This document shows, piece by piece, positions 20,207 to 50,004 of a stretch of 64,000 bases of DNA (positions within the stretch are counted from its first letter, which is position 1; every line of letters begins with the position of its first letter). The notes under the pieces are model-generated. The model was given only the letters and a program-made list of their open reading frames with translations. It made no database searches and was not told where the DNA came from. The stretch is taken from assembly GCA_047947115.1 (NCBI GenBank), contig CP170459.1, positions 800,001 to 864,000 of the forward strand, read 5' to 3'. A program made the position numbers and the translations under genes. The stretch is from Verrucomicrobiota bacterium (GTDB lineage: Bacteria; Verrucomicrobiota; Verrucomicrobiia; Limisphaerales; AAA164-E04).

Positions 20207-21072
20207 GGTAGGGACCTGCTGCAGCAGGTCCGTGAGCGCGTTTGAAACATTCGAAACCTTGCGGGGTTATTCGGACACACCAACGGCCGAGCAGCAGCTC
20301 AGCCCTACCAATAGCTGGCGCACTTCACCGGTAGGGACCTGCTGCCGCAGGTCCGTGAGCGCGTTTGAAACATTCGAAACCTTGCAGGGTTATTCGGACA
20401 CACCAACGGCCGAGCAGCAGCTCAGCCCTGCCAATAGCTGGCGCATTACACCGGTAGGGACCCGCTGCCGCAGGTCCGCGAGCGCGTTTGAAACATTCGA
20501 AACCTTGCGGGGTTATTCGGACACACCAACGGCCGAGCAGCAGCTCAGCCCTACCAATAGCTGGCGCACTTCACCGGTAGGGACCTGCTGCCGCAGGTCC
20601 GTGAGCGCGTTTGAAACATTCGAAACCTTGCAGGGTTATTCGGACACACCAACGGCCGAGCAGCAGCTCAGCCCTGCCAATAGCTGGTGCACTGCACAGG
20701 TAGGGACCTGCTGCCGCAGGTCCGCGAACGCGTTTGAAACATTCGAAACCTTGCAGGGTTATTCGGACACACCAACGGCCGAGCAGCAGCTCAGCCCTAC
20801 CAATAGCTGGTGCACTACACAGGTAGGGACCTGCTGCCGCAGGTCCGCGAGCGCGTAAGAAACATTCGAAACCTTGCAGGGGTATTCGGACACGCCAACG
20901 GCCGAGCAGCAGCTCAGCCCTACCAATAGCTGGTGCACTGCACAGGTAGGGACCTGCTGCCGCAGGTCCGCGAACGCGTTTGAAACATTCGAAACCTTGC
21001 AGGGTTATTCGGACACACCAACGGCCGAGCAGCAGCTCAGCCCTACCAATAGCTGGCGTACTTCACCGGTAG
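20207..21072 (+). repeat. tandem array of 7 x 123-bp REP-doublet units (family A, BIME-like)
   Basis: Units start at 20207, 20330, 20453, 20576, 20699, 20822 and 20945. Each is GGTAGGGACCTGCTGCCGCAGGTCC + 53 bp + GGCCGAGCAGCAGCTCAGCCCTACC + 20 bp. Confidence 0.97.
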
Positions 21073-21194
21073 ATAAGTTCCACCTCGTTCCCTTTTTTAA
21101 ACCTATAGGTATCTCCTGACCAAGTGACGTGGAACGCGGGAAGATTTCACCCTGCCGATCGCCTGCGGCATTTCCATTGTGCAGGTAATGGATT

Positions 21195-22439
21195 TCACAA
21201 CCCACAAGGTCTGAAGTGGGCTCTAGACGGAGCTTGCCCCTCCAGGCTGTGCAACAATGCTTCGGCGCACGCTTTCGCAAATGCTGGATCGTTGATTTCC
21301 GCATCTTGTTCGATCACGGGTATGTCGGAGCGAAGATGATCTTTGATGCCTTTGAACAATGCTTCGTCTGCAGCAGTATCATGGAAGGATTGTCCGGGTG
21401 CGCTGATCACGCTGATCGCTTTCAGCGGCAACAAGACCGTAACAGGAGCTGTGTAAGCATTGATCTTTTCAGCCAGAATGCGTCCGAGTTTTGCGCATTC
21501 TTCTTGATTCGTGCGCATCAAAGTGACTTGTGGATTGTGATGGTAAAACGTTCTGCCCGCGAATTTGGAAGGCACGGTCTCTGGTTCTCCAAAATTGACC
21601 ATGTCCAGACACCCGGGCACTACAATCGCCGGTAACTTCGCCTTGCCGGTGGCTTCATGACGATGAGGGCCGGCGGATAATACTCCTCCCACGAGTTCAT
21701 CGGCCCACTCGGTTGCCGTGATGTCGAGCACGCCCACCACCAAACCGCTTTCGATCAGCGATTCCATGCAACGGCCACCGGATCCGGTAGAATGAAACAC
21801 CAGCACTTCGTAGCCGGCCTGTTCCAGGATTATCCTGGCTTCCTCGACACATTGAGTGGTGTTGCCGAACATACTGGCCACGATGATGGGTTTGTCTTCT
21901 GTTGCATCTACTTTGGATTCCACCATCCCGCAGATGGCTCCCGCCCCCCGAGTGAAGATCGTTCGTGAAATGCGGTTGAGTCCCGACACATCCACGATGC
22001 TGGGCATCATGACAATGTCTTTGGTACCGACATAATGTTCCGTGTTGCCGCTGGCCAAAGTGGAAATCATCAACTTGGGAAAACCCACCGGAAGCGCCCG
22101 CATGGCAGCGGTGGCAATCGCTGTTCCGCCACCACCGCCCAGCGACACAACACCTTGAATGCCTCCTTCCTTAACCAATTGCTGCAGCAGCACAGGAGCA
22201 GCTTTAGCCATGGCGGCCACCGATTCACCGCGATCTTGTCTGGCCAGCACCGCATTCAAATCGATTTCTCCGGCGGCGGCCACTTCTTCGCGGGTGATCT
22301 GATGTGCCACGGTCGCGGGAGCCCCCGTGCCGACGTCGATCATCAGAGTTTCATGACCGTGCTTGCGAATCTCGTGCGCGATGAAGGCATGCTCGGCGCC
22401 CTTGGTATCCAAGGTTCCGAGGACTGCGATGGTTGCCAT
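21195..22439 (-). CDS. Tm-1-like ATP-binding domain protein (UPF0261)
   Basis: LGTLDTKG, GGGGGT, PVGFPKLMIST, SMFGNTT, VFHSTGSGG, PGCLDMVNFG. Confidence 0.92.
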   Translation of the reverse strand: MATIAVLGTLDTKGAEHAFIAHEIRKHGHETLMIDVGTGAPATVAHQITREEVAAAGEIDLNAVLARQDRGESVAAMAKAAPVLLQQLVKEGGIQGVVSLGGGGGTAIATAAMRALPVGFPKLMISTLASGNTEHYVGTKDIVMMPSIVDVSGLNRISRTIFTRGAGAICGMVESKVDATEDKPIIVASMFGNTTQCVEEARIILEQAGYEVLVFHSTGSGGRCMESLIESGLVVGVLDITATEWADELVGGVLSAGPHRHEATGKAKLPAIVVPGCLDMVNFGEPETVPSKFAGRTFYHHNPQVTLMRTNQEECAKLGRILAEKINAYTAPVTVLLPLKAISVISAPGQSFHDTAADEALFKGIKDHLRSDIPVIEQDAEINDPAFAKACAEALLHSLEGQAPSRAHFRPCGL

Positions 22440-22484
22440 GGTTGGGAGGGATTATGAAGATTTCAGTCGTGCTTCATCATACGC

Positions 22485-23198
22485 TCAAGGCTTCTCCGAA
22501 ACCCACTTCAAGGCATTCTTCAGAATTGTTTGATAAGCCTCATGACTGTGCGACTGCCCATCATGACCCAAAGTAATTCCCACGACACGGGCTTTCGGAT
22601 GTTTGATGATGAACACGCTTGGGTAATGATCATTCTTGATCTTGGAATAGGCGGTCGCCAACACTTCGATACCGGGCCCCCTGGGATCGACTTTCTGATA
22701 ATAGAGCTCATCCGTGATCTCAAATGTGACAGGAACACCTTTCATCACCGGATGCTCCTCATCGACCACGTCCACCGTGAAGGGCCCCAAACGATCGTGA
22801 CCTCTCGCGCCGCCACCTGCCAGATCGCGATTGAACTCCGGCCAATCCCTCCAGCTGTACCAAAGCGCGGAATGAACCAGCAACATGCCTTTGCCTTCGT
22901 TCAGGTGCTGAACGATCGCATCTTTGGAGGCCTGATCTTCAAAAGGTTTGTTGTTGCTCAGATATAGCACATCCACACCCGCGATCGTTTCCTTCATATC
23001 GGATGTTTTCTCGGTGTAATCCACTATCACATCGGAACTCTCCAGCAGCTTTTTATCAGCCAGATTGAACCAACGTTGAAAATCGTGATAGGTACCTCCC
23101 CCGACAATCAGTGTGTTTAACGGATCAGCCGACGTAACGCCGCAAACAAGAACCAATGCACAAATGGATGCCCAACGATGGAGAATATATTTTTTCAT
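22485..23198 (-). CDS. ThuA-like (trehalose utilisation) domain protein with signal peptide
   Basis: Signal peptide; GGGTYHDF, HPVMKGV...ITDELY, LGHD. Confidence 0.85.
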   Translation of the reverse strand: MKKYILHRWASICALVLVCGVTSADPLNTLIVGGGTYHDFQRWFNLADKKLLESSDVIVDYTEKTSDMKETIAGVDVLYLSNNKPFEDQASKDAIVQHLNEGKGMLLVHSALWYSWRDWPEFNRDLAGGGARGHDRLGPFTVDVVDEEHPVMKGVPVTFEITDELYYQKVDPRGPGIEVLATAYSKIKNDHYPSVFIIKHPKARVVGITLGHDGQSHSHEAYQTILKNALKWVSEKP

Positions 23199-23264
23199 AA
23201 ATGACGTAACCGGGTTGATCAGTATTGAAGTGAATCAGACACGCGCGGTCAAGCGCCACACGCC

Positions 23265-24146
23265 TTAAAATTTGAATTTTCCGGCAGCGGGAGCTTTAAG
23301 GGATTTGAATTTACGGGTGAGTTGAGTGAGGGATTCCTCAACTGCCATGCGTTCCAGAGAACTGGCACCCACAAAACCCAGCACATCCGAATGCTTCATG
23401 ATTTTGTCGGCATCTTCCGGCGTGTTGATGGGTCCACCGTGCGCCAAAAAGATCACATCCTTGCGGTGTTGTTGCACGGCATCGATGATTTCTTTGCAAC
23501 GCTGGATCGCAAAATCCCAGGTTACCACCGCATTGGTCACTCCAATCGAACCACCCACAGTCGTGCCTACGTGCACGATGATCGCATCCGCTCCGGCCTT
23601 GGCCATCTCCACGGCTTCTTCGGGTGTGGCGACATACACAACGGAAAACAAATCCATCTTCCGCGCCAAAGCAACCATCTCAAATTCCTTCTTCACGCTC
23701 ATCCCGGTCTCCTCCAGCACACCCCGGAAATGACCGTCGACAATGGTATGGGTCGGGAAATTGTTCACCCCCGAAAACCCCATATCCTTGACCTGAAGCA
23801 ACCAGTGCCACATCCGACGCCGTGGATCCGTGGCGTGCACCCCGCAGATCACCGGCACTTCCTCCACCACCGGCAACACTTCAAACTCCCCGATCTCCAT
23901 CGCCACCGCATTGGCATCCCCGTAGGCCATCAGGCCACAGGTGGAACCATGCCCGGACATACGATAACGTCCCGAGTTATAAATAATGATCAAATCCCCC
24001 CCACCCTTTTCAATAAACTTGGCGGAGATGCCGGTTCCGGCGCCTGCAGCGATGATGGCGTCCCCTTGCTTGATCGTTTCATGAAGTCGCTCGATGACTT
24101 CCTTGCGTGTGTAAGGATTCCCCTTACCTGTCCATGGGTTTGGCAT
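23265..24146 (-). CDS. phosphoenolpyruvate hydrolase family / TIM-barrel signal transduction protein
   Basis: GAGTGISAK, IYNSGRYRM, YGDAN, GVNNFPT, HGGPI, GASSLER. Confidence 0.92.
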   Translation of the reverse strand: MPNPWTGKGNPYTRKEVIERLHETIKQGDAIIAAGAGTGISAKFIEKGGGDLIIIYNSGRYRMSGHGSTCGLMAYGDANAVAMEIGEFEVLPVVEEVPVICGVHATDPRRRMWHWLLQVKDMGFSGVNNFPTHTIVDGHFRGVLEETGMSVKKEFEMVALARKMDLFSVVYVATPEEAVEMAKAGADAIIVHVGTTVGGSIGVTNAVVTWDFAIQRCKEIIDAVQQHRKDVIFLAHGGPINTPEDADKIMKHSDVLGFVGASSLERMAVEESLTQLTRKFKSLKAPAAGKFKF

Positions 24147-24205
24147 AATTAAAAAGTAACGTGTTCAGAAATTCTAGCTTTGCGACGATTGAATTTCCAT
24201 CAAGT

Positions 24206-24607
24206 TCATTCATTGAACTGATAGAGTTCAATAGGAATGTGTTTGGCATAATGGACAAAGTCCTTGTCTTTACTGAGGATTGATATCTTCCATTTGATCG
24301 AACAGGCACAAATTAAGAAATCGGTATGGGATCCCTGGATCCCCCTGCTTCGACAGAGATTGAAACAGGATGCTGCCATCTCAAAAATTGGCTCTTCAAT
24401 GATGTGACTCGGAAACGCCCTCAATGAGTTTTTGATCTGTTCATATTGAGTGAAGTTCTTAATCCCTGATAGGATCTCCTGTCTGATCGGCCCGATCATC
24501 ACCACTTCACCGTTTGCAATCAGGTTTCTGAGAGTGGTCACACTCTTGCCTGATCTACCCTTTTTCCGGAATGCTTCAGACCAGACATCGGAATCAACGA
24601 TGACCAT
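24206..24607 (-). CDS. vapC: VapC PIN-domain toxin
   Basis: IVDSDVWS, QEILSG, TDFLICA, SKDKDF. Confidence 0.92.
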   Translation of the reverse strand: MVIVDSDVWSEAFRKKGRSGKSVTTLRNLIANGEVVMIGPIRQEILSGIKNFTQYEQIKNSLRAFPSHIIEEPIFEMAASCFNLCRSRGIQGSHTDFLICACSIKWKISILSKDKDFVHYAKHIPIELYQFNE

Positions 24608-24804
24608 TACAGCCTCCGGGCCTTTTTAGGTTGGTAATCGTCGAAATATTCCACCGTCCCAAAAAGATCCAGCACCTTTTGTTGCTCCCGTCGAACAATA
24701 AATTCTTTCAATGCTTCGTTGACCGTATCCTTCTTCGTCCTCTTTCCCCCTATTTTTAGAGCTTTGTTTAACAGCTCATCATCTATTGCCAAATTTGTCG
24801 CCAT
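24607..24804 (-). CDS. vapB: VapB antitoxin
   Basis: MATNLAIDDELLNKALKIGGKRTKKDTVNEALKEF; TAATG overlap with vapC. Confidence 0.92.
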   Translation of the reverse strand: MATNLAIDDELLNKALKIGGKRTKKDTVNEALKEFIVRREQQKVLDLFGTVEYFDDYQPKKARRL

Positions 24805-24839
24805 GTGTAGACACTTACACAAATGTGGCACATAGTCAA
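24804..24839 (-). promoter_or_regulatory. vapBC promoter/operator
   Basis: Minus strand has a TTGACT -35 (24834-24839) and the palindrome TGTGTA-N6-TACACA (24804-24821) abutting the ATG. Confidence 0.6.
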
Positions 24840-25881
24840 TCAAACTGGTTTTCAACGGAAGTACATTCTGGTCAGATTATCAACAACAATTATCAGATTG
24901 ATATTACTGTGGGAGCTAAACACTACTTCGCTTTGGTAGGCTTGAGCGAACCAGCACTTCAGGATGAGGTTGTTGGTGGCCTTGTGCCTTTCAAACTTTC
25001 GGAAGCAGAGCATCAGTTCATGCTCCAAGAGACAGATATTGCTGTAGATGTAGATTCTGCGGTTGATGCTGCTGAACAATCTTTCAGCGAAAGCTACCCA
25101 AATGGGAACATTTACTTCAAAAAGAGCAGATTTTACAAAGGTTCTGCACTGCATTCACTGAGATATTCAACAGTTTTGGGGCGTGTTGGTTGTTTCTAAT
25201 ATAGTTTAAAATACTGCAATTTGATGTTTTTGCTATAAATAAAACCCAATCAAATACCAACAGAACACCAACAAAACCCAACCAAATACCAACAAAACGA
25301 AGATAAATTATCTTATTCCAAAGCCATTTTGATTAAATAAAGGCCATAAAATGCTGTCTTTATGGCTTTTTTGCTTTTCCACACCATTTTTAAATCAAGA
25401 ACTTGTTGTTTATTTTTATAAATAGCAATCAAGATGGCCTTTGTGACGTAAATCGACACAACCAAACATCTGGTCAAATTCTCATCGGATACTCGCGAAG
25501 TTGTCCCTCCTCTCTAAAAGCAAGCAAGTGTTCAGCAACATTTGAAATAAAGGGTAGGGTCTTCTTCTACCTCTCAACAGTCACTAGGCTGTTCACCTAC
25601 CCTTCAACCAAGTAACTAAAATTAAATCTGAAAAAAATTTTCATCTTCTTTGGTAATGTTTGTTAGATTCTTGCTTTTTGCCTCATTGGGCATGCCCATA
25701 TCATTACTACAGCAGACATTTCAACGGCCTCCATATCTATTATGATGAAATGCAATAATCGAACTTGCTTTAATAGGATTAAAACCATATTAAAGAGTTC
25801 GTTTTGGCGTTTTGAGATTGATCTGGATGCAGATCTGCATAGCACCTTCTGCTATGCATCAAAATGCAGAAAACCCTGAAA
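24840..25881. other. AT-rich islet with a start-less ORF fragment (ending 25199) and CCAA(C/A)-type short repeats
   Basis: Visibly lower GC than the flanks; ATACCAACAGAACACCAACAAAACCCAACCAAATACCAACAAAAC at ~25254-25298; no recognisable intact gene. Confidence 0.6.
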
Positions 25882-25958
25882 GCACCGGTAGATCAACTGG
25901 ATAGATCATCTGACTTCGGATCAGAGGGTTGGGGGTTCGAATCCCTCCCGGTGTACCA
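25882..25958 (+). tRNA. tRNA-Arg, anticodon TCG
   Basis: 77-nt cloverleaf: acceptor GCACCGG/CCGGTGT, D-stem GATC/GATC, anticodon arm TCTGA-CTTCGGA-TCAGA, T-arm GGGGG-TTCGAAT-CCCTC, encoded CCA. Confidence 0.95.
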
Positions 25959-25963
25959 TTTGC

Positions 25964-27334
25964 TTACCCCTTAAATTCCGCTACCAATCCCTGCAATGTC
26001 TGTCGTGCATCGCCGAAGAGCATGCGGGAGTTTTCACGGAAGAAGAGGGCGTTGTCGATGCCGGCAAAGCCGGAGGCCATGGAGCGTTTCATGACAATCA
26101 CCGTTCTGGCTTTGTGGGCTTCGATGATGGGCATGCCGTGAATCGGGCTGGATGGATCTTCCGCTGCCGCAGGGTTCACGATGTCGTTGGCGCCGATGAT
26201 CAGGCAGACATCGACGGTTTCCATCACGGGGTTGATGGCTTCCATTTCCACCAGTTGTTCGTAGGGTACGTTGGCTTCAGCCAATAATACGTTCATGTGG
26301 CCCGGCATACGTCCTGCAACGGGGTGGATGGCGTATTGAACTTGTGCGCCGTTGGCTTCCAGGATTTGACCGAGTTCGTGCACGGCGTGTTGGGCTTGGG
26401 CCACTGCCATGCCGTATCCAGGTACGACAGCGACTGATCGGGCGGCTTCCAATAGAATAAAGGTGTCTTCAACTGAGATGGGTTTGACCTCGCCTTCGAT
26501 TTTGTCCTGTTTCTTGGAGGTGGATGCCGAACCAAATCCACTGAACAACACGTTCCCCAGGGAACGGTTCATGGCTTTGCACATGATCTGGGTGAGGATG
26601 ATGCCGCTGGCTCCGACCAGGGAGCCGGTCACGACCAAAACGTTGTTCCGCAAAACGAATCCCGTCGCACAAGCTGCCAAACCCGAATAACTGTTGAGCA
26701 AGGCAATGATCACCGGCATGTCCGCTCCACCAATGGGAATCGTGGTCAGCACACCCAACAACAAAGCCACTCCGAGGACAATATGGAAAAAGGTCAAATT
26801 GGCTCCCCCCCCCGCACAGAATGCAACAGTCAAACCCACAACCGCGAGAATCAACACCAGATTCAAGGGCTTTTGTCCGGGAAACAGGAACGGTCGGCCG
26901 GGGAGTTTACCACTGAGTTTTCCCCAGGCGATTAAACTTCCAGTAAAAGTAAGCGCTCCGATGAAAACGGAAATGAGCACGGTGGCGTTTTGAAACACTT
27001 CAGGAGATGGCGATCGCCGATGAGCTTCCCAAGCGACGAGCAAGCTGGCCAGACCTCCCGACCCGTTGAAGAGAGCCACCATTTCCGGCATCGAAGTCAT
27101 GGCCACCAACCGGGCGGCCAGCGCTCCGATGACGGTTCCCGCCACCACGCCGACGACGATCCATTGAAAATCCAGAATGCCTTTGTTGAGCAATGTGACG
27201 ATGATCGCCAGCAGCATGCCGGATGCTGAGAGCATGTTCCCACGCCGGGCTGTGTCGGGCGAGCTGAGTTGTTTGATACCAAAAATGAAGGCGCCCGCGC
27301 TGAGCATGTAGGCTATGTCGATCCAGTGGTTCAT
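25964..27334 (-). CDS. pntB: NAD(P) transhydrogenase subunit beta
   Basis: MPEMVALFNG, IGGADMPV, NSYSG, PGYGMAVAQAQ, HPVAGRMPGHMNVLLAE. Confidence 0.97.
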   Translation of the reverse strand: MNHWIDIAYMLSAGAFIFGIKQLSSPDTARRGNMLSASGMLLAIIVTLLNKGILDFQWIVVGVVAGTVIGALAARLVAMTSMPEMVALFNGSGGLASLLVAWEAHRRSPSPEVFQNATVLISVFIGALTFTGSLIAWGKLSGKLPGRPFLFPGQKPLNLVLILAVVGLTVAFCAGGGANLTFFHIVLGVALLLGVLTTIPIGGADMPVIIALLNSYSGLAACATGFVLRNNVLVVTGSLVGASGIILTQIMCKAMNRSLGNVLFSGFGSASTSKKQDKIEGEVKPISVEDTFILLEAARSVAVVPGYGMAVAQAQHAVHELGQILEANGAQVQYAIHPVAGRMPGHMNVLLAEANVPYEQLVEMEAINPVMETVDVCLIIGANDIVNPAAAEDPSSPIHGMPIIEAHKARTVIVMKRSMASGFAGIDNALFFRENSRMLFGDARQTLQGLVAEFKG

Positions 27335-27630
27335 CGCTTGTCACCCTTCTTTTTGAACATTTCCAACATACGATCAGTGACCAGGTATCCTCCGACGACA
27401 TTGACCGTTGCCGCGATCAGGGCGATCAACCCCAACCACCGACTGAGGGTATCATCGGTTCCCGAACCTGCCGCCAGCAACGCCCCGACGATGGCGATGC
27501 CGGAAATGGCGTTGGATCCGGACATCAGGGGTGTATGCAACATGGACGGAACCTTGGAGATCAATTCAAATCCAAGCACGGCCGAAAGTAAGAAGATGAA
27601 GAAGAGATAAATGAGTAAAGTTGTTTCCAT
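27331..27630 (-). CDS. pntA: NAD(P) transhydrogenase subunit alpha part 2 (membrane)
   Basis: VPSMLHTPLMSGSNAISG, NVVGGYLVTDRMLEMF. Confidence 0.95.
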   Translation of the reverse strand: METTLLIYLFFIFLLSAVLGFELISKVPSMLHTPLMSGSNAISGIAIVGALLAAGSGTDDTLSRWLGLIALIAATVNVVGGYLVTDRMLEMFKKKGDKR

Positions 27631-27641
27631 AACGTTGTTGA

Positions 27642-28775
27642 TTAGGAATGGATGGACTGAAACTGCGGATGAATGATTTTCCCTTCGTAGGCGATCAGGC
27701 AGGATTTCATGATCTCGTCCTCAAGGTCCCATTTCCAGGTTTTGGTTTCCTTGTCCCAGAATTCGGTGATGAGATGCACCAGATTGCTTGCGTACATCTG
27801 GCTGGCATGGAAGGCGACCCGACCGGGAAGTTTCGAAAAGCCGATCAATTTAACCCCATTGATATCCACGATCTCGTCGAGTTGAATCCCTTCAACATTG
27901 CCACCGGTTTCCACCGCCAGGTCCACCACAACGGTACCCGGCTCCATGGCATTGACGATGTCTTTGGTGACGATCTTGGGAGCGGGTTTGCCGAAGACCT
28001 GTGCCGTGGTGATCACGATGTCGGCGTTGCGATAAAACTTGAGCATGGCTTCACGTTGTTTGGCCAATTGCTCATCCGTCAATGCCTTGGCATAGCCTTG
28101 ATCAGTCTGCCCGGTTTCACCCACATCGATCTGGGCAAAACGTGCCCCCAGAGATTCGACCTGTTCGCGCACCACCGGACGAGTATCGTAGGCGGTCACT
28201 TGAGCCCCAAGACGGCGGGCTGTGGCAATGGCCTGCAATCCGGCCACACCGGCACCGACCACCAGCACCCGACAAGGTTGAATGGTTCCTGCAGCCGTCA
28301 TCATCATGGGAAACGCCTTGGTCGTATGGTTGGCGGCGATCAATACAGCCACATATCCCGCCAGATTTGCCTGAGAGGTCAAAGCGTCCATGCGTTGGGC
28401 GCGGGTGATGCGGGGCACCATTTCAATGCCGATCGCGTTGATTTGCTTGCGGGCCAGGGTTCCAACCGGTGAGGTCTTGTCGAAGGGGTTCAAGAAACCG
28501 ATGTGCAAGGAGCCTGACTGCATCTGTTCAACATCCTCTTGTGCAGGAGGATGAAAGCGCAGCACAATGTCGGCATTAGATACAACCTTCGTGCGATCAG
28601 ACTCCACACTCGCGCCGGCTTTCTCATAGGCTTCATCGGGAATGCCACTTAAGGCGCCCAATCCAGCCTCCACCACCACCTCCGCTCCCAAGGCAACCAA
28701 CTTGGTCACCGATTCGGGAACCATGGCGGTTCGCTGTTCTCCCGGTAATATTTCGGATGGTATCCCGATCTTCAT
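27642..28775 (-). CDS. pntA: NAD(P) transhydrogenase subunit alpha part 1
   Basis: PRITRAQRMDAL, MMTAAGT, GAGVAGLQAIATA, DLAVETGGN. Confidence 0.96.
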   Translation of the reverse strand: MKIGIPSEILPGEQRTAMVPESVTKLVALGAEVVVEAGLGALSGIPDEAYEKAGASVESDRTKVVSNADIVLRFHPPAQEDVEQMQSGSLHIGFLNPFDKTSPVGTLARKQINAIGIEMVPRITRAQRMDALTSQANLAGYVAVLIAANHTTKAFPMMMTAAGTIQPCRVLVVGAGVAGLQAIATARRLGAQVTAYDTRPVVREQVESLGARFAQIDVGETGQTDQGYAKALTDEQLAKQREAMLKFYRNADIVITTAQVFGKPAPKIVTKDIVNAMEPGTVVVDLAVETGGNVEGIQLDEIVDINGVKLIGFSKLPGRVAFHASQMYASNLVHLITEFWDKETKTWKWDLEDEIMKSCLIAYEGKIIHPQFQSIHS

Positions 28776-29930: not shown

Positions 29931-29959
29931 TCCAACAAGAACAACCATCCTCAAAAAAC

Positions 29960-31953: not shown

Positions 31954-32295
31954 GGTAGGGACCTGCTGCCGCAGGTCCGCGAGCGCGTTTGAAACATTCG
32001 AAACCTTGCAGGGTTATTCGGACATGCCAACGGCCGAGCAGCAGCTCAGCCCTACCAATTGCTGGTGCACTGCACCGGTAGGGACCTGCTGCCGCAGGTC
32101 CGTGAGCGCGTTTGAAACATTCGAAACCTTGCAGGGTTATTCGGACATGACAACGGCCGAGCAGCAGCTCAGCCCTACCAATTGCTGGTGCACTGCACCG
32201 GTAGGGACCTGCTGCCGCAGGTCCGCGAGCGCGTTTGAAACATTCGAAACCTTGCAGGGTTATTCGGACATGACAACGGCCGAGCAGCAGCTCAG
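31954..32295 (+). repeat. tandem array of ~2.8 x 123-bp family A units
   Basis: Units at 31954, 32077 and 32200, nearly identical to the 20207 array; last unit truncated within the second REP. Confidence 0.96.
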
Positions 32296-35446: not shown

Positions 35447-35558
35447 TGAAGACTACCCCGGGTAGCGTGTTGAGGATTTGGGAAAACTCGTAACGTTGTA
35501 CGGACGCGGCACCTGACGCGCGACAGCGCAGCCCTACCGGGGAATCAAAGCATTCCAA

Positions 35559-40603: not shown

Positions 40604-40686
40604 ATTCCTGATGTTCCGTTATTCAATTCCAGCAAACCAAAACGGATCCCGCATCCGCCCCCCAAATCATAATCTTGATCATGATC

Positions 40687-41553: not shown

Positions 41554-41561
41554 GGATCGTA

Positions 41562-42374
41562 TCACTCTGGAGTGTTCAGGTCGGGCTCGGCGTCCTCGCC
41601 TTGAGCTTCAGTTGCATCTGAATCAGCCCCCGATTCGTCTTCGGGCGGAGCCACTTCAATTTCGATTTCCTCAAAAGGACCGGGTTGAATCGCCTGGAGC
41701 TGCTTCATGCGAATCATCTCCAACAACGCCAAAAAGGTCACCACCACCTCCTGCCGAGTACGATCCTGCTCAAATAGTTCCGAAAATTTGAAACGGGTTT
41801 GAGTGCGAATGCGCTCCCGGAACATTTCGATTTTCTGACTCACCGACCAGGCATCCGCGGAAATTTCCCGTGCACCTTCTGATTTTTCCTCGATCCGCTG
41901 GAGAATGGTTCCCACCGCTTTGACCAAATCAAAGACGCTGACATCCGGCTTGGGAGCCTCACGCGTTTCGATCAATTTGAAGTTGGGTTTGGGAGCATGA
42001 CGCACAAAAATCGACTCCTGTTCCAGTTCCTTCTCCTTCAATTGGGCGGCGGCATCCTTGAATTTCTTATACTCCACCAACTGACGAATCAGTTCCCAAC
42101 GAGGGTCATCCCCCTCGTCATCATCATCCAGAACGACCTGTTTATCCTTGGGCAGCAACTCTTTGCTCTTGATGTACATCAAAGTGGCCGCCATCACCAC
42201 AAACTCACCCGCCACCTCGAGGTCGAGTTCCCGCATAAACTCGACATACTGGATGAATTCGGTCGCCAACTGAGTGAGATTGACCTGATAAATATCCACC
42301 TCCTGCTTCCTTACCAGGTAAAGAAGCAGATCCATCGGCCCTTCAAAGACATCAAACTGGACTTTATATTCCAT
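41562..42374 (-). CDS. scpA: segregation/condensation protein A
   Basis: FEGPMDLLLYLV, EFVVMAATLMYIKS, VVTFLALLEM. Confidence 0.95.
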   Translation of the reverse strand: MEYKVQFDVFEGPMDLLLYLVRKQEVDIYQVNLTQLATEFIQYVEFMRELDLEVAGEFVVMAATLMYIKSKELLPKDKQVVLDDDDEGDDPRWELIRQLVEYKKFKDAAAQLKEKELEQESIFVRHAPKPNFKLIETREAPKPDVSVFDLVKAVGTILQRIEEKSEGAREISADAWSVSQKIEMFRERIRTQTRFKFSELFEQDRTRQEVVVTFLALLEMIRMKQLQAIQPGPFEEIEIEVAPPEDESGADSDATEAQGEDAEPDLNTPE

Positions 42375-42459
42375 CAGTCGGCAACCGATCATAAGCCCTC
42401 CCAAACCCCCTTGGCAACACAGTAACCCCCCAAAGATCACCCCCAAAGATCACCCCCAA

Positions 42460-42523
42460 GTAGCCGCCTTTAGCGAAAGTAGCCGCTTTCGCTATACAGT
42501 AGCCGCTTTCGCCAGAAAGTGGC
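42460..42523 (+). repeat. GTAG-type REP family D, three tandem copies (two partial)
   Basis: GTAGCCGC(C/T)TT at 42460, 42479 and 42499; full form GTAGCCGCTTTCGCCAGAAAGTGGC. Preceded by tandem CCCCCAAAGATCA. Confidence 0.8.
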
Positions 42524-42534
42524 AACCACCTCCA

Positions 42535-42760
42535 GGTAGAATCCCGCGGCTGCGTGGATCCCTGGCGCGTCCCTTGTGGCTTTCGAACTTCAATCACCTT
42601 ACATTTTGGGAAGCCTATGATTACCGGATTATCAATGCCTCACAATCTGTGCGCCCGTTCTCAAGAAAAATGTGGCGCTCTGTCACGTCGGGGTTTTCCT
42701 TTGGATGTCAATTTTGATCAGGAATGCCACAAGGGGCGGACCGAGACGATCAGCTCTACC
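42535..42760. repeat. REPIN/MITE-like element family B, copy 5
   Basis: GGTAG...CCCTTGTGGC, CAATCACCTT, TTTTGGGAAGCCTATG, TTTCCTTTGGATG, GCCACAAGG...CTACC. Confidence 0.82.
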
Positions 42761-42782
42761 TGCAGCACACTCCAGGTAGAAC

Positions 42783-42807
42783 GTAGCCGCCTTCGCCAGA
42801 AGGTGGC
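42783..42807 (+). repeat. REP family D copy
   Basis: GTAGCCGCCTTCGCCAGAAGGTGGC, with a compensatory C/G change relative to the other copies. Confidence 0.8.
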
Positions 42808-42823
42808 CCCCTCAACGCTCCCA

Positions 42824-44389
42824 CTATCTCAACATCCCCGGCCAAGGCCAGACCCAGTCATTCTGGTCGTATTGATAACGTGTGATACGGTTTTCGGTCA
42901 CGGTTTGGTAGGGAATGCCCCCATCGTCTTTGGCATTCCAACCAATGCTGTAGAGACGGAAATCACCATCATCGGTCAGGTGATATTTGAAATCTCCACC
43001 AAGAATCGGATCTTTGGGGAGTGTTTCGATGTATGTTGGCTCCAGTTCCTGAAGCGTTTCAGGATACTGCTGGTTTGTTAGCCGGTAACGTTCCAAGGAG
43101 CACACGATAGGGACCATGCTGAAATGGGTTTGAGTAACCCATCTTTGCTGTAGCCTCCAGGATCCATGGGTGGTGATAAGCGGATTGGCCCCCAACATCC
43201 GAATCGCCATCGAGGAAGCCATCCAACCTTCACACTGCTTGAAAGCTTGAACGTAAACCGCCGGATCAAAAGGATGGGATTGTCTCAGTCCATCAATTTG
43301 AATCTGAATGATTCTTGAATACTGAACACCTAACATCTTGTGCCACCCACTTGGTATCCATCTTACCTTCTTTACCTGTTCTGACGTATAAAAATTACTT
43401 TCGATATTCTCTGACGGAGATTTTCTTTGTCCCTTCAGACACCAATCCAACTTTCCTGCCCGCTCGCTTTGCTCAACTTCTACCAACGGTTTCAGACAAT
43501 CCAGTTTTCCATAGTACGACTGAAAATAATCAAGATGCTTTTCTTTCCATCGGTGCTGGAGCAATCCTTGCCAAACAGGATTTAGTGCCACACCGTGACA
43601 TGCCAATCTAACCAGACGCCCTAAGGCAAATGGATCTTTTTCAAGACTAAGGGAAAGATCGTTTGCTTTTACAACCCAATAAAAAGCTGCATCTACATCG
43701 CCTTTCTCCAGAGAAAGAGCGGCCAGCGAAGCGAAATGCAAATTGATGGCCTTGAATTTTGCATATGTATGAAACTTGGTCTCTTGCGGTTCTTTTTGCT
43801 TTTTAGGTAAAGCAAAATAGGGTCTGGTAGTTAGCTCCTTCTCGATAGCTTCTCTGATTGGGCGATAATAATCCAGAACACCGAGCAACCAGTCTACATC
43901 GCTCACTCCAGGCTGTATTGTATCAAATGGGAGAATCACTCCACTTGCATGCGCTTCTTCAATGAGTTTTTCAAAATAGGAAACAGTGTGCTCATGCGTG
44001 ACCAACTCAGTTCGAAAAAAAGAACTATGACCAATCGTCATAAATTCTGGTAGGAGTATTTGGTCTTCCGAAATCTTTAATTTCCAGTATTGAGGACCAT
44101 CTTTGAGCTTATATGGAACGTAATCCCGAAACAACGGAATCATGGCGAGATTCTGTTCGTCTGGAATTTGAGGATGTTGAAAATCGTTGAGATCGACCGG
44201 TTCGCCTTTGGCTTTCAACGAAGCCAACTCACGTTCCAACGCTCGCGCGCCACGCCAGTTTTCGATGGCCCACGCCAGCGCCACAAGCGTGATCAATCCA
44301 ACACATAGGGATAGATTGAATCGAAACAAACGCACGAAAAACCGTTTCCAATTGATGGTGCTGTTCCTGGTTAATTTGAAAAAACTCAT
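42824..44389 (-). CDS. hypothetical membrane-anchored protein with pseudopilin (GspG)-like C-terminal motif
   Basis: N-terminal TM then ENWRG; C-terminal LERYRL...YPETLQEL.P.YI..LPKDP...F.Y...F.LYSIGWN..DDGG. Confidence 0.7.
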   Translation of the reverse strand: MSFFKLTRNSTINWKRFFVRLFRFNLSLCVGLITLVALAWAIENWRGARALERELASLKAKGEPVDLNDFQHPQIPDEQNLAMIPLFRDYVPYKLKDGPQYWKLKISEDQILLPEFMTIGHSSFFRTELVTHEHTVSYFEKLIEEAHASGVILPFDTIQPGVSDVDWLLGVLDYYRPIREAIEKELTTRPYFALPKKQKEPQETKFHTYAKFKAINLHFASLAALSLEKGDVDAAFYWVVKANDLSLSLEKDPFALGRLVRLACHGVALNPVWQGLLQHRWKEKHLDYFQSYYGKLDCLKPLVEVEQSERAGKLDWCLKGQRKSPSENIESNFYTSEQVKKVRWIPSGWHKMLGVQYSRIIQIQIDGLRQSHPFDPAVYVQAFKQCEGWMASSMAIRMLGANPLITTHGSWRLQQRWVTQTHFSMVPIVCSLERYRLTNQQYPETLQELEPTYIETLPKDPILGGDFKYHLTDDGDFRLYSIGWNAKDDGGIPYQTVTENRITRYQYDQNDWVWPWPGMLR

Positions 44390-44467
44390 ACTGCTTGAAA
44401 ATTAAATTTAGAAACCTACGGGCACCTCTCAACAAACTCCGAAACCGCCCAGATACGCCAAACCCAC

Positions 44468-44501
44468 TTTGGAGTGCGGTGGCTCGACACCGCACTCCAA
44501 A
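44468..44501. repeat. collapsed family C element (single hairpin)
   Basis: TTTGGAGTGCGGTG-gctcga-CACCGCACTCCAAA, a perfect 14-bp stem. Confidence 0.85.
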
Positions 44502-44744
44502 TGGCGCTTGCGTGCTTCGTTTGGGATTGGGCTCCATGGAAAAGCTCTTCCTTTTCGCGATCGAAAGTCAAGCCAACCCTGCGGTCCGGGCGCAGCATCC
44601 GATCGAGGCACTTGCTGTTCGACTGGTGCATTAGGAACTACGTGAAAATCATCCATCCACTCCAAAAGATTCAATCCAATTACCAATTTATTGGGAAAGC
44701 CTCCCCCACCAGCCGCTTTAGCGCAAGCAACCGCTCTAGAACAA

Positions 44745-44769
44745 GTAGCCGCTTTCGCCAGAAAGTGGC
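44745..44769 (+). repeat. REP family D copy
   Basis: GTAGCCGCTTTCGCCAGAAAGTGGC, identical to 42499-42523. Confidence 0.85.
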
Positions 44770-44990
44770 AAACGAACCCGTGTCCACAAAGCCCTTCGAA
44801 CATACCAGGGCAAAAGCTATTCGATGGAGACACGTCTGGCTTTAGGTGTACCCAAGGCTTCCCACGTTCTATTCTCTTTATGCACGAACGCTATCAGGTG
44901 GAAGTTTGGGACTTGATGGAACAAGTTCCTCCAGTGGAAAAGAAGGGATTTGCGTTGCCGAGAGTTTTTGGTGTCTTTTACGATGCGTCC

Positions 44991-47171
44991 ATGGTTTTTC
45001 GTGTATTGATGGCGGGAATGTCTCTTTTGGCGGGGTCCTTTCAGGCTAAAGGAGCGGATCCTCAGGCTGCCTGGAGTTTGGAGGATGCCTCGGCGCGGCA
45101 GGCACTCCCTTCGTTTAAGGTTATTCCCGCGGCGGATCTTGATGCGTTGACGAATGCGTCGGCGGTTGAGTTAACTCCCGGAGTAGCTGAAGGTGATTGG
45201 CATCGTTCTCACGGAAATCACTCATCAGACAGGTATTCTACGTTGAAACAAATTCACCGGGGGAACGTTTCCCGTCTGGAGGTAGCCTGGATTTATCATT
45301 CCAATGATGGAAAGGGAAATATCCAATGCAATCCGATCTCGGTCGACGGGACGATTTATGCCCCGACCGTGGGTGGACATGTGGTTGCGTTGGATGGAAG
45401 TTCCGGAGTTGAGAAATGGCGTTTCAAACCGGAAGGCCAACCTGCCTTTCGTGGCTTGACGTGGTGGGGTGGCGCTGCGGATGGGAAAGCCCGATTGATG
45501 TTCAATGCGGGTGATTGGCTTTACCTGCTCCATCCTGAATCAGGGCAGCCCTTTGAATCTTTTGGAGACCAGGGACGCGTCCGAACCGGTCACTTCAGAG
45601 TCGCACCAGCGATTTACGAAAACAGGATCCTCATCGCGGGTTATGGTGGGGATGCGTTTGCTTTTGATTTGTTCACGGGCGAAAAACGCTGGACCTTCCA
45701 CACCAAACCCGAACCCGGCACATTCGGCAGTGACACATGGAGCCGAATTGAAAGCGGCGCCAATTGCTGGAGCGGCACCGCATTGGACGCATCACGCGGC
45801 ATCTTCTTCCTCACCACCGGCAGTCCCAAACCCAACTTCATCGGCACCGGTCATCTGGGAGACAATTTGTTCAGCAATTGTGTGATCGCTCTGGACACTC
45901 GGACGGGCGAACGGCTGTGGCATTTTCAGGAGATCCGACACGACATCTGGGATCTGGATATCCCAGCCCCTCCTGTGCTGGTTTCGGTGGAGCGTAACGG
46001 CAAACGAGTGGACGCGGTGGCGGCTGTCACGAAAATCGGCAACACACTTTTATTGGATCGCGTGTCAGGTCAACCGTTGTTTCCTTTTCGTCTCCGAAGG
46101 ACGCCTGTATCGAAACTACATGGCGAACGAACCTCCCCATATCAACCGGACTTGCAGTGGCCGCAACCCTTCTCGCGGCAGCGTTTCGGAATGGACCAGA
46201 TCACGAACCTCTCCGAAGAAGCCCGGCAAGCGGTGTTATCTCAGCTGAATGATCCCGATACAGATATTCAATCCAACATGGGTTGGTTCGAACCATTTGA
46301 AGCGGGCAAACCAACTGCCTTATTCGGCATTCATGGCGGGGCTGAATGGATGGGGGCTTCATTTGATCGCGAGACTGGATTCCTATATGTGACTTCCAAC
46401 GAACTGCCCTGGTTTCCCACCGTATCCAGGATCCCCTTTCCGGTGGATACAAGTACAGAACCCGCCACCGAAGGACGCAGGCTTTACGAGCAACACTGCA
46501 TGGTTTGTCATGGCACGGCACGCGAAGGCGTTGGCGTCAATCCACCCTTGATCCAAGTCGGCAAACGTAAAACCGAAGAAGAAATCCGAACCCTTCTCAA
46601 GACCGGACGCAACCTGATGCCTGCCGCCGAAATGTTGGATGCGAACATGACAGATGCCGTAGTGGATTACGTGTTAGAACGTGATCGAACATCCAGCCAA
46701 GCCACCGAACAGGCCGAATCAAGACCAGCCTACACTTACAACGGGTACCCGAAACTCCTGGACCACGAAGGGTACCCCGGCTGCAAACCGCCCTGGGGAA
46801 CACTGAACTGCATCGACCTCAACCAAGGCACACTCCGATGGCAGGTCCCCCTCGGCGAACACCAACGACTGACTGAACGAGGCATTCCGATCACGGGAAC
46901 CGAAAACTTCGGCGGAGCCACCGTCACCGCCGGAGGCCTGGTCTTTGCGGCAGGAACCCGCGACCTCAAAATTCGCGCTTTCGACAAACATACCGGCGAG
47001 GAACTCTGGTCCCATGCACTTCCCTTCGGAGGTTTTGCGCCACCGTCCACCTATCTGGCCAACGGTCGTCAATTCATCCTCATCCCGGCCACTGGCGGCG
47101 GCAAACTGGGCGGCCTCATGGGAGACGCTTATGTGGCGTTTAGGTTGTCTGTTGATGATGAAAGTTTTTGA
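44991..47171 (+). CDS. PQQ-dependent (glucose/quinate-type) dehydrogenase with inserted cytochrome c domain
   Basis: RYSTLKQI...NV..LEVAW, WHFQEIRHDIWDLD, CMVCH heme motif, KPPWGTL, TENFGG..VTAGGLVF. Confidence 0.9.
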   Translation: MVFRVLMAGMSLLAGSFQAKGADPQAAWSLEDASARQALPSFKVIPAADLDALTNASAVELTPGVAEGDWHRSHGNHSSDRYSTLKQIHRGNVSRLEVAWIYHSNDGKGNIQCNPISVDGTIYAPTVGGHVVALDGSSGVEKWRFKPEGQPAFRGLTWWGGAADGKARLMFNAGDWLYLLHPESGQPFESFGDQGRVRTGHFRVAPAIYENRILIAGYGGDAFAFDLFTGEKRWTFHTKPEPGTFGSDTWSRIESGANCWSGTALDASRGIFFLTTGSPKPNFIGTGHLGDNLFSNCVIALDTRTGERLWHFQEIRHDIWDLDIPAPPVLVSVERNGKRVDAVAAVTKIGNTLLLDRVSGQPLFPFRLRRTPVSKLHGERTSPYQPDLQWPQPFSRQRFGMDQITNLSEEARQAVLSQLNDPDTDIQSNMGWFEPFEAGKPTALFGIHGGAEWMGASFDRETGFLYVTSNELPWFPTVSRIPFPVDTSTEPATEGRRLYEQHCMVCHGTAREGVGVNPPLIQVGKRKTEEEIRTLLKTGRNLMPAAEMLDANMTDAVVDYVLERDRTSSQATEQAESRPAYTYNGYPKLLDHEGYPGCKPPWGTLNCIDLNQGTLRWQVPLGEHQRLTERGIPITGTENFGGATVTAGGLVFAAGTRDLKIRAFDKHTGEELWSHALPFGGFAPPSTYLANGRQFILIPATGGGKLGGLMGDAYVAFRLSVDDESF

Positions 47172-47240
47172 GAAAAAAATGGGGCTGGGTGGAACCAGCC
47201 CCTCCATGATCCAACAATTTATTTGGGTAATTTCTTTACC

Positions 47241-48782
47241 CTACTCCCACTCGATGGTGGCCGGAGGTTTGCTGGAGATGTCGAAGCAGACGCGGTTGGC
47301 ACCTTTGACTTCATTGATGATGCGGTTGGACATCTTTTCGAGCACCTGGTAGGGGAGTTTCACCCAGTCGGCGGTCATGCCGTCCTTGGAATCCACCACG
47401 CGCACGGCGATGGTGTATTCGTACGTGCGTTCGTCTCCCATGACACCGACGCTCTTGACCGGCAACAACACCGCGAAGGCTTGCCACACTTTGTAATACC
47501 AGTCGCTGGCTTTCATTTCTTCCAGGACAATGGTGTCAGCTTCTTTCAAAATACGCAGGCGTTCACGGGTGACTTCACCGAGGATGCGTACGGCCAATCC
47601 CGGTCCGGGGAATGGATGACGGTAGACCATGTTTTTGGGCAGCCCCAGTTCCAGTCCCAAGAGCCGAACCTCGTCCTTGAACAGACATTTCAGCGGTTCG
47701 AGGAGTTTGAATTTCAGGTTTTTCGGCAAGCCTCCGACGTTGTGATGGCTCTTAATCAAGGCAGCCGGATTACCGGCAATGGGGACGGACTCGATCACGT
47801 CGGGATACAAGGTTCCCTGCGCCAGGAAGGTGGCGTCACCGACTTTTTTGGTGGCATTAGTGAAGGCTTCGATAAATGCTTTGCCGATGATTTTGCGTTT
47901 GCGTTCCGGGCTGGTGATTCCTTTGAGGCGTTTTAGAAACATCGGGGTGGCATTTTCGTAACGCAGTTTCATTTTGAAATTGTGCTGAAACATCTCGCGT
48001 ACGGCATCGGCTTCGTTGGCCCTGAGCAAGCCGTTGTTTACAAAGATACAGGTCAATTGATCACCAATGGCGCGATGGATCAGCGCGGCAGCGACACTGG
48101 AATCGACTCCACCACTGAGCCCCAGAATCACCTTGTCATTCCCGACCTCCTGGCGAATTTCCTCAACTGCCTGGTCGAGGTAGTTGAGCATGGTCCAGTT
48201 GCGTCCGCATTTACAGATATCGTAAACAAAATTGTCGATGATGACACTTCCGCGCGGTGTGTGGACAACCTCAGGATGGAACTGAAGTCCGTAACGTTTG
48301 CGTTTGGAATCTTCAATGGCCGCGAAATCGGAATTCTCGGTAACGGCAACTGCTTTGAATCCGGTGGGGAGTTTGGTAAGCTTGTCGCTGTGTGAGTTCC
48401 AGACTTGAATACGTTTTGGCAAACTACGGAACAGTGGACTGCTCTTATCCTTTATTTCGAGAGTCCCTTTGCCATACTCACGCTTCAAACCTCGTTCCAC
48501 CTTGCCTTTAAGCGAGTGGGCCAGCACCTGGAGCCCGTAGCAGATCCCAAGCATGGGTGCTTTGAGTTTGAAGACGGCCGGATCCGGCATGGGTGCTTCC
48601 TCGTCGAAGACACTACAGGGTCCTCCAGAGAGAATGATTCCCTTTGGTTTCATCTTCGCAATCTCCGCCGCAGGCGTGTCGTAGGGCAGGATAGTGGAGT
48701 ACACCTGGCACTCACGAATACGCCGGGCGATTACCTGGGTGTATTGCGAACCAAAATCGAGTATGATAATTTGCTCCTTCAT
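47241..48782 (-). CDS. guaA: GMP synthase (glutamine-hydrolysing)
   Basis: [42 protein letters not shown]. Confidence 0.98.
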
Positions 48783-48880
48783 GGGAACGGAAATCGGTTT
48801 TTATGCGGAAAAAACATGCTGCTGACGAGCAAAAACTATATTAAATTTGACGCTGCTTTCCGAAAGAATGCAAGCAAACG

Positions 48881-49318
48881 ATGAGCTGGCTGCTAAGATT
48901 ACTGGCGATGGGGGGGCTATGGAAGAAGCTTTCCGGCACCTACCAACAGACCACGACAGGCATCCGCCAGGCGAAATCCTTCGCCAGCGGAGTCATGGAA
49001 AAGCATGTCCAGAGCACGCTGGAACAGGCCGAAATGGGGGATCGTGAGGCGATTTTTGAAATGGCAGAGCGATTTTACGAAGGTCGCTGTGTGCCAATGG
49101 ATTATGAAATCGCCGCGGGTTGGTTCCTAAAAGCGGCCGAACTGGGCCACACCAAGGCCCAGACGAATCTGGGCATGATGTTATGGATCGGACGGGGATG
49201 TACCCGTGATCGTGAAACGGCCCTTCATTGGATCAAAACCGCCGCCAAGAAACAATACGAACCCGCCCAGGAGCTGCTTCTGGAAATCCGCAAGAAGCAC
49301 GGTGGGAATACGCGGTAG
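48881..49318 (+). CDS. Sel1/TPR repeat protein
   Basis: WFLKAAELGHTKAQTNLG...GRG...A..W...AA. Confidence 0.85.
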   Translation: MSWLLRLLAMGGLWKKLSGTYQQTTTGIRQAKSFASGVMEKHVQSTLEQAEMGDREAIFEMAERFYEGRCVPMDYEIAAGWFLKAAELGHTKAQTNLGMMLWIGRGCTRDRETALHWIKTAAKKQYEPAQELLLEIRKKHGGNTR

Positions 49319-49363
49319 AACGTTCAGAACGATCAATCCATGTCCTTCAACGCAAGGGAAAAA

Positions 49364-49550
49364 TCTGGAATGCGGTGAGCATCGCCGCTCTGGACACCTT
49401 TCGGAACCATTTCAGCATTCGATAGCTGTGAAATTTCCGTATTCTCCAATGGCATCTGTGACCTGAGAAACCAGATCCCAAAAGAGAATCAGAATGCCAT
49501 AAATCAATTCGAAACATATCCAAAGCTGTGTCAAGCTACAGCACTCCATA
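49364..49550. repeat. REP doublet family C, copy 3, 187 bp
   Basis: TCTGGAATGCGGTGAGCATCGCCGCTCTGGA ... ATCCAAAGCTGTGTCAAGCTACAGCACTCCATA. Confidence 0.85.
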
Positions 49551-49559
49551 AGGTGTTTG

Positions 49560-50004
49560 GCGTATCCGCATGACGCAACTGGTCTCCCTTATCTCCAGCG
49601 CGCTCGCGGACCTGCGGCAGCAGGTCCCTTCCGGAGGAGGCAGCCTTTTGGCTGGTAGGGATGTGCTGCTGCACGTCCGGTGGCGTGTCCGCATGACGCA
49701 ACTGGTCTCCCTTATCTCCAGCGCGCTCGCAGACCTGCGGCAGCAGGTCCCTTCCGGAGAAGGCAGCCTTTTGGCTGGTAGGGATGTGCTGCTGCACGTC
49801 CGGTGGCGTGTCCGCATGACGCAACTGGTCTCCCATTAATCTCCAGCGCGCTCACGGACCTGCGGCAGCAGGTCCCTACCGGAGGGGGACAGCCTTTTGG
49901 CTGGTAGGGATGTGCTGCTGCACGTCCGGTGGCGTGTCCGCATGACGCAACTGGTCTCCCTTATCTCCAGCGCGCTCGCAGACCTGCGGCAGCAGGTCCC
50001 TACC
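49560..50004 (-). repeat. tandem array of ~3.6 units, divergent family A variant (123, 123, 126 bp)
   Basis: CATGACGC recurs at 49569, 49692, 49815 and 49941. The reverse complement has the same first REP and GCGAGCGCG / CGGACAC motifs but a different second REP and spacer. Confidence 0.95.

What the first reader, a model, noticed from the sequence alone, without database searches (positions are those of the whole stretch)
20207..50004. Three REP-doublet arrays keep the same 123-bp period despite diverged interiors
Seen: arrays at 20207-21072 (7 units) and 31954-32295 (~2.8 units) have the layout 25+53+25+20 bp. The reverse-oriented array at 49560-50004 has 25+52+25+21 bp, with a largely different spacer and linker but still 123 bp (one unit is 126). 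The second hairpin differs by compensatory changes (GGCTGAGC/GCTCGGCC vs GGATGTGC/GCACGTCC, same TGCT loop), and GAGCGCG and CGGACAC persist inside the spacer. Established: GTAG-plus-hairpin REPs are substrates of RAYT (TnpA-REP) HUH nucleases, and tandem doublets form BIMEs. Inference: structure and spacing, not just sequence, are constrained. Near-identity within each array suggests recent local amplification.
Basis: partly seen in the sequence, partly recalled or inferred. Interest (0 to 1): 0.7.

Follow-up and report, generated by a model that had tools for sequence, protein, structure and literature searches.

The report
REP doublet arrays with own transposase
The three arrays are tandem copies of a ~100-base paired-hairpin repeat found at about 50 places in this bacterial genome and on both sides of a transposase-like gene that likely copies it, so they are a new member of a known kind of bacterial repeat, and 123 bases is the commonest unit length rather than a fixed one.

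Summary
The arrays are real and belong to one genome-wide family of GTAG-headed REP doublets: 99 units at 52 loci in a single-contig, probably Verrucomicrobiota genome. A single-copy RAYT gene lies 4.5 Mb beyond the window, inside a cluster of the same doublets. Its relatives carry the same REP (22 of 29 loci).

Spacer length is conserved: 52-53 nt at 33 of 36 complete loci, at 55% mean identity, with fewer indels than my neutral simulations give. The stems covary strongly. The interiors are decayed homologues, not unrelated sequences.

123 bp is a mode, not a rule. Periods of 120, 122-124, 132-134 and 217 occur. The same REP, near close RAYT relatives in other genera, has spacers of 0-156 nt. 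Orthologous sites in two congeners hold 0-1 units where this genome has 2-7, which supports local amplification.

Conserved spacer length, compensatory changes and tandem clusters are already described for REPINs and BIMEs. Earlier scan notes report similar systems in other Verrucomicrobiota, but none for this sequence. Verdict: new member of a known kind.

The parts
20207..21072 (+). Array 1: 7 REP doublets with 53-nt spacer and 20-nt linker, period 123; starts 8 nt after a yoeB stop codon. (The cognate RAYT gene lies outside the window, at G000:C1:5390959-5391420, minus strand.)
20208..20231 (+). First y REP: GTAG plus 8-bp stem and 4-nt loop, GTAG on the + strand
20232..20284 (+). 53-nt spacer, homologous to the family consensus
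20285..20308 (-). First z REP: GTAG on the - strand, with a T.G wobble at stem position 4
20310..20329 (+). 20-nt linker between facing GTAG heads
31954..32295 (+). Array 2: 2.8 units, 6-9 differences per unit from array 1; the orthologous site in congener G007 holds one doublet plus a partial y
49558..50004 (-). Array 3: 3.6 units, spacers 52/54/52, linkers 21-22, steps 124/125/123
14611..14707 (+). Solo doublet of the same family: decayed y head, 52-nt spacer, z stem identical to arrays 1-2
35464..35538 (+). Partial doublet (spacer plus z)

Best explanation
The three arrays are tandem copies of a polar REP doublet (REPIN/BIME type) that occurs at about 50 loci in the genome and flanks a single RAYT gene, which likely copies it. 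Shown: each unit has two GTAG-headed 8-bp hairpins on opposite strands, a 52-53-nt spacer descended from one ancestor, and a 19-22-nt linker; stems covary; unit numbers differ at orthologous sites between species; the copy next to the RAYT is the closest to the family consensus. Inferred from TnpA-REP biochemistry in other bacteria: the RAYT binds one hairpin in single-stranded DNA, cuts and rejoins nearby, seeds a unit at a new intergenic site, and the unit is then multiplied in place. Inferred: the spacer length is inherited with the unit and modestly selected, because copies that keep the geometry stay copyable. So about 123 bp is this genus's main unit length, not a universal ruler.
For: Family: 99 units at 52 loci. 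RAYT at G000 5.391 Mb lies inside three such doublets. It has HLH and YxxxNP motifs, E 2.8e-6 to E. coli TnpA-REP 4ER8 and E 5e-16 to NF047646. H69 and H71 are kept in 31 of 31 aligned loci, Y125 in 30 of 31; crude pS 0.82-0.93 against pN 0.18-0.23. The same REP lies within 500 nt at 24 of 31 RAYT loci, or 22 of 29 without the own locus and one apparent duplicate. 32 of 35 genomes with a RAYT match at E<=1e-55 hold the REP, against 118 of 301 overall (counted by hand; partly circular, and kin are not independent). The RAYT-flanking spacer is 85% identical to the consensus, median 68%. Covariation: 5 of the top 6 MI-APC pairs are stem pairs; 108 of 128 variable positions are Watson-Crick in 32 distinct stems, against 57 shuffled, maximum 76. 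At z position 4, 15 of 25 loci show C.A on the y strand, which is T.G on z's own GTAG strand; this fits each hairpin being read on its own strand. Copy number: G001 has 1 unit where G000 has 2 at two sites; G007 has about 1.3 units at the array-2 site and none at the array-1 site. The nearest sequence relative lies within 100 kb for 7 of 34 loci, 1.3 expected, P 0.0006. Length: 33 of 36 loci have 52-53 nt; P<0.001 at an indel:substitution ratio of 0.036 or more.
Against: No cleavage, transposition or expression of this RAYT is shown. It scores under the NF047646 cut-off (58.9 vs 80) and the Pfam Y1_Tnp cut-off (17 vs 23), and has FQ where described subclasses have WQ. The length test depends on my assumed indel model: P 0.04 at ratio 0.02 and 0.35 at 0.01. 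It also rests on a tree from 53-nt rows and on the 36 of 52 loci that kept both hairpins. No replichore bias, 27 vs 25 loci. No genome-wide distance decay, Mantel P 0.19. In G007 the RAYT is flanked by units with a different, roughly 72-nt spacer. Filled/empty site pairs were too diverged to fix the insertion ends. By distinct stem, the G.T over A.C excess is modest: 14:3 against 19:9.5 shuffled.
Confidence: 0.85

Rival explanations
1. Length conservation needs no selection: all copies descend from one ancestral doublet, indels are simply rare, and stems are kept perfect by palindrome repair (template switching; recalled knowledge).
For: Spacers share one consensus. Other lengths exist and amplify well: a 63-nt spacer in a 10-unit array, 62 nt in G001, about 72 nt in G007. 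Other genera show 0-156 nt. At an indel ratio of 0.01 the peak is expected, P 0.35.
Against: The within-array ratio is 3 indels to 84 substitutions (0.036), at which the peak has P<0.001. Five of 6 parsed orthologous spacer pairs (73-94% identity) have no indel; at the array-2 site the spacer aligns gap-free at 74% while neighbouring intergenic DNA aligns poorly. A T.G wobble persists over 8 stem backgrounds, which repair should erase.
Confidence: 0.3
2. The doublets are kept mainly as RNA structures (terminators or mRNA stabilisers) after gene ends, and spacing reflects an RNA fold.
For: Nearly all loci are intergenic by a crude ORF call (4 of 52 overlap a called ORF), and many sit just after a stop codon. 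Such roles are described for REPs (PMC3733652 passages). It can be a secondary use.
Against: No orientation preference to the nearest 3' end: 24 y-first vs 18 z-first; 10 of 52 loci lie between divergent genes. No covariation inside the spacer or between y and z. The two hairpins favour wobbles on opposite strands.
Confidence: 0.1
3. The whole unit length is measured, for example by the amplification step or a double-stranded-DNA-binding protein, in steps of about one helical turn (about 123 and about 134).
For: Spacer and linker lengths are negatively correlated over 15 loci (r -0.53, one-sided P 0.025; the sum is 73 at 8 of 15). A period of 132-134 is reached three ways: long hairpin, 63+21, and about 72+11 in G007.
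Against: The loci are related, so P is overstated. Periods 120, 122, 124, 125 and 217 exist. There are few independent length classes.
Confidence: 0.12
4. The arrays are assembly expansions.
For: Long reads were not examined.
Against: 7 of 7 units are distinct. Arrays of period 123 and 120 occur in independent assemblies G007 and G001.
Confidence: 0.02

Closest known systems
REPINs and RAYTs of Pseudomonas fluorescens SBW25 (PMC3116915; passages and section 10 part 1 read)
   Same: Inverted REP doublets with a modal spacing, a spacer whose 'critical features' are length and hairpin capacity, compensatory changes, tandem clusters of near-identical units, and a RAYT flanked by them.
   Different: Here the two REPs have different stems and show no y-z covariation. 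The ends pair in the MFE fold at only 16 of 36 loci. The linker length is also narrow (19-22 nt at 16 of 17 loci with a true linker), and stems vary much more between loci.
E. coli BIME-2 and TnpA-REP (PMC3333891 passages; PDB 4ER8)
   Same: Two different REP types alternating in tandem; copies alike within a locus and variable between loci; copy number varying between strains; a REPtron.
   Different: BIME-2 linkers vary in length and sequence and the REPs are long and bulged. Here the stems are short, near-perfect 8-bp stems and spacer length is held.
Group 3 / subclass 2.5 TnpA-REP systems, e.g. S. maltophilia Sm (PMC8266576 part 1 and passages; PMC6006769 passages)
   Same: Short near-perfect palindrome directly after GTAG; protein about 151 aa with DH[LF]H.
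   Different: P0001 has FQ for WQ and YVRQNP for YI[VI]ANP. Subclass 2.5 was described mainly from xanthomonads and pseudomonads.
GTAG families of Opitutus terrae (PMC3733652; passages, section 4 part 1, supplement search)
   Same: [quoted passage not shown]
   Different: The two O. terrae dimer types with a quoted gap (GTAG-17, GTAG-19) have partners 1-2 bp apart. The consensus figure was not visible, so identity with GTAG-17 to -20 could not be checked.

Membership tests
REP (GTAG type) | GTAG tetranucleotide at the foot of a short palindrome | tested here: met
   122 of 142 structure-scan hits have an exact GTAG and a fully paired stem
REP (GTAG type) | Many dispersed, extragenic copies | tested here: met
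   119 exact matches vs 0 control; 4 of 52 loci overlap a crudely called ORF
REPIN | Inverted doublet at a modal distance | tested here: met
   Model-free: 14 of 16 loci at 52-54 nt
REPIN | Doublet folds into one long hairpin | tested here: inconclusive
   Ends pair in 16 of 36 MFE folds; variable y and z positions are not complementary, 2-6 of 24-34 at four registers
BIME-2-like array | Tandem alternation of two REP types, homogeneous within a locus, variable in copy number | tested here: met
REPtron | Single-copy Y1 HUH gene flanked by the same REPs | tested here: met
   one match in G000 at E<=1e-15
RAYT (class 2 TnpA-Y1) | HuH motif and Y---NP motif | tested here: met
   definition from PMC6006769
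RAYT (NF047646 equivalog) | Score over the curated cut-off of 80 bits | tested here: not met
   58.9 bits, E 5e-16
RAYT group 3 / subclass 2.5 | DH[LF]H, WQ and YI[VI]ANP motifs, about 151 aa | tested here: inconclusive
   Length and DHLH fit; F at the W position in 29 of 31 loci; no tree with reference groups was built
RAYT-REP system | GTAG-dependent cleavage and strand transfer on single-stranded REP | not testable with these tools
   needs purified protein
CRISPR array | Constant repeats with unique spacers | tested here: not met
   Spacers are near-identical within arrays and homologous between loci; no Rfam match but one tRNA in the window

The most novel reading that the evidence does not exclude
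A Verrucomicrobiota RAYT clade outside the described groups amplifies REP doublets with a built-in length ruler. Spacer and linker lengths compensate, and differently built units converge on about 123 or about 134 bp, one helical turn apart, which would make unit length itself the selected trait.
Probability: 0.12. Interest if true: 0.55.

Novelty: new member of a known kind. Interest (0 to 1): 0.27.

Why it matters
It is a modest addition. It extends REP-RAYT systems to a Verrucomicrobiota order (REP in 118 of 301 genomes searched); one full-text search for Verrucomicrobi + REP + RAYT returned a single paper. The family is a good natural experiment for the open question of how REPINs are copied. 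One conserved RAYT clade serves 32 stem variants in one genome and very different doublet geometries between genera, so recognition (GTAG-GG, GC-TGCY-GC, paired stem) can be separated from spacing.

Tried and rejected
- Pfam PF01797 search of the genome missed the cognate RAYT; NF047646 and a motif scan found it.
- The pattern had one base too many and gave 0 in the own genome; superseded.
- Automatic hairpin parsing miscalled some long z hairpins. Fixed, where 7 units were added and 1 dropped by hand; one more fixed. 16 of 52 loci were left out of the length test as partial; most show no indel over the part matched.
- RAYT absence in G001 rejected as a finding: the orthologous site is a 100-N scaffold gap.
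- Mini-hairpin next to y: 28-30 of 34 paired but no two-sided change, so unsupported.
- Leading/lagging strand bias: none. Mantel test: not significant.
- ORFs read across the arrays give only spurious Pfam hits with 0 passing stretches. Rfam: nothing.
- Contigs of 4 runs from 4 studies laid on the RAYT locus cover most or all of the gene and run into its REPs; 2 of 4 show a head-to-tail junction absent from this genome (likeness 90). It may be an extra unit, a circle or a linker variant, so it is a weak hint only.
- Scan look-up by sequence found nothing. Paper search on template switching gave nothing relevant (listing only).
Full report
Observation. The three arrays are at the stated places with TRF period 123. 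Each unit is a y REP (GTAG, 8-bp stem, 4-nt loop), a 52-53-nt spacer, a z REP on the other strand and a 20-22-nt linker. Array 3 steps are 124, 125 and 123 from y to y. All 7 units of array 1 differ, by 3-10 bases, and arrays 1 and 2 differ by 6-9 per unit. The labels y and z are mine, borrowed from E. coli usage.

Genome-wide family. The window is 800001-864000 of a single 6.08-Mb contig. The REP pattern has 119 exact matches and the reversed control 0. A profile found 99 non-overlapping units at 52 loci. Among 36 loci with both hairpins (78 units; 7 added and 1 dropped by hand), spacers are 53 nt at 19, 52 at 14, and 51, 62 and 63 at one each. Without the profile, 14 of 16 loci have 52-54 nt, one 63 and one 104. 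Periods are 122-124 at most arrays, 132-134 where a hairpin is extended or the spacer is 63 nt, and 217 in a mosaic. Congener G001 has a 120-bp array.

Interiors. Spacers align almost without gaps to one consensus. Mean identity is 55%; the middle is 47% against 27% from composition. They are decayed homologues. A tree of 36 spacers has about 630 substitutions and 5-17 indel events. In simulations on that tree, with my own indel size model, the observed peak has P<0.001 at an indel:substitution ratio of 0.036 (the within-array value, 3 to 84), 0.04 at 0.02 and 0.35 at 0.01. Five of 6 parsed orthologous pairs in G001 and G007 have no indel at 73-94% identity; a seventh could not be parsed. Length is probably constrained, but the test depends on the neutral ratio and on a short alignment.

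Structure. Over 34 loci, 5 of the 6 strongest MI-APC pairs are stem pairs inside y or z. None supports a fold in the spacer or pairing of y with z at variable positions. In 32 distinct stems, 108 of 128 variable positions are Watson-Crick, against 57 shuffled. The z stem keeps a T.G wobble on its own GTAG strand at 15 of 25 loci, over 8 stem backgrounds. This fits recognition of each hairpin in single-stranded DNA, as shown for TnpA-REP (PMC8266576, PMC3333891), better than one RNA fold. The G.T excess by distinct stem is modest (14:3 against 19:9.5). Many linkers fold into a small hairpin, but weakly.

Cognate enzyme. A 153-aa gene outside the window, at G000:C1:5390959-5391420 (minus strand), lies between doublets of this family, and its stop codon is part of a GTAG. 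It matches E. coli TnpA-REP and NF047646 below cut-off. It keeps HLH and YxxxNP across 31 aligned loci and shows a crude pN far below pS. Its flanking spacer is the closest to the consensus. 92 of 301 genomes of the order have a match at E<=1e-15, and 118 of 301 have the REP. The REP is within 500 nt at 22 of 29 foreign RAYT loci. Contigs from 4 runs of 4 studies also carry most or all of the gene, running into its REPs. Outside the genus the doublet spacers run from 0 to 156 nt, and G007's own RAYT is flanked by units with a roughly 72-nt spacer and period 134. The 52-53-nt geometry is therefore a trait of this genus's main unit (G000, G001, G007), not of the enzyme clade.

History of the window's arrays. 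G007 has one doublet plus a partial y at the array-2 site, in the same orientation, and nothing at the array-1 site. G001 has other sequence where array 1's right end would be. Arrays 1 and 2 are each other's nearest relatives, 11.7 kb apart, and such close pairs are in excess (7 of 34 within 100 kb, P 0.0006), although there is no general distance trend. Inference: array 1 is a short-range copy of the array-2 unit, amplified in place. G001 has 1 unit where G000 has 2 at two sites, and several G001 units have empty sites in G000.

Mechanism. Shown: anatomy, family, covariation, linkage to a RAYT, gain and loss of units. Inferred from PMC3333891 and PMC8266576: RAYT binding, cutting at nearby dinucleotides, strand transfer, and a two-step spread of seeding and local amplification. 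Host recombination between adjacent units could also change copy number. Not shown: activity, expression, insertion ends.

Comparison. PMC3116915 already names length and hairpin capacity as the critical spacer features, and reports compensatory changes and tandem clusters. PMC3733652 reports spacers that differ in sequence but not length, and GTAG repeats in O. terrae. Its consensus figure and the supplements not held as text could not be seen and may contain this REP. The two bioRxiv papers (10.1101/119735, 10.1101/2021.07.10.451892; passages only, supplements not seen) tie REPINs to RAYT groups 2 and 3. P0001 is nearest group 3 by motif but not placed. PMC3686654 was seen as passages only. 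Four paper searches showed no description of this family; most subscription papers are not searched.

Verdict. A real feature and a new member of the REP-RAYT kind; interest 0.27. What remains open is whether total unit length is measured. The hint is a spacer-linker compensation (r -0.53, 15 related loci) and three routes to about 134 bp; periods of 120, 122, 124 and 125 weigh against it.

Noticed in passing
window 19662-20199 (+): YefM-YoeB toxin-antitoxin pair ending 8 nt before array 1; part of this region is also present, without the array, in G007.
   Followed up: partly
window about 21072-21245: Array 1's right end abuts a member of the 186-197-bp repeat family that forms arrays elsewhere, e.g. 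G000 3.837 Mb; probably the family of note e1-2077256.
   Followed up: no
G000:C1:2361013-2361936 and 1507900-1508800: Two more RAYT-like genes, each flanked by a different abundant repeat family (GTAGCCGC-type and GGTAG-ATC/GGACG-type); the second looks truncated.
   Followed up: partly
G000:C1:385144-386247, 775417-776472, 1066017-1067063, 2128346-2128678: Three long Y1-transposase-like frames (about 350 aa) and one IS200-like gene.
   Followed up: no
G000:C1:4517455-4519683 and 4802713-4803278: Two CRISPR-like arrays with periods 61 and 66.
   Followed up: no
G000:C1:2296295-2297050: 217-bp mosaic array alternating this doublet with an unrelated spacer and other REP variants.
   Followed up: partly
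family alignment: Spacers are strongly G>C skewed on the y strand (middle: G 328, C 123) with no replichore bias; unexplained.
   Followed up: partly
family alignment; L045: The last 12 nt of the spacer echo the start of the z hairpin; a 40-nt spacer in G007 looks like slippage between the two.
   Followed up: no
L008:1225-2160: Head-to-tail junction at the RAYT cluster in 2 of 4 runs: extra unit, circle or linker variant.
   Followed up: partly
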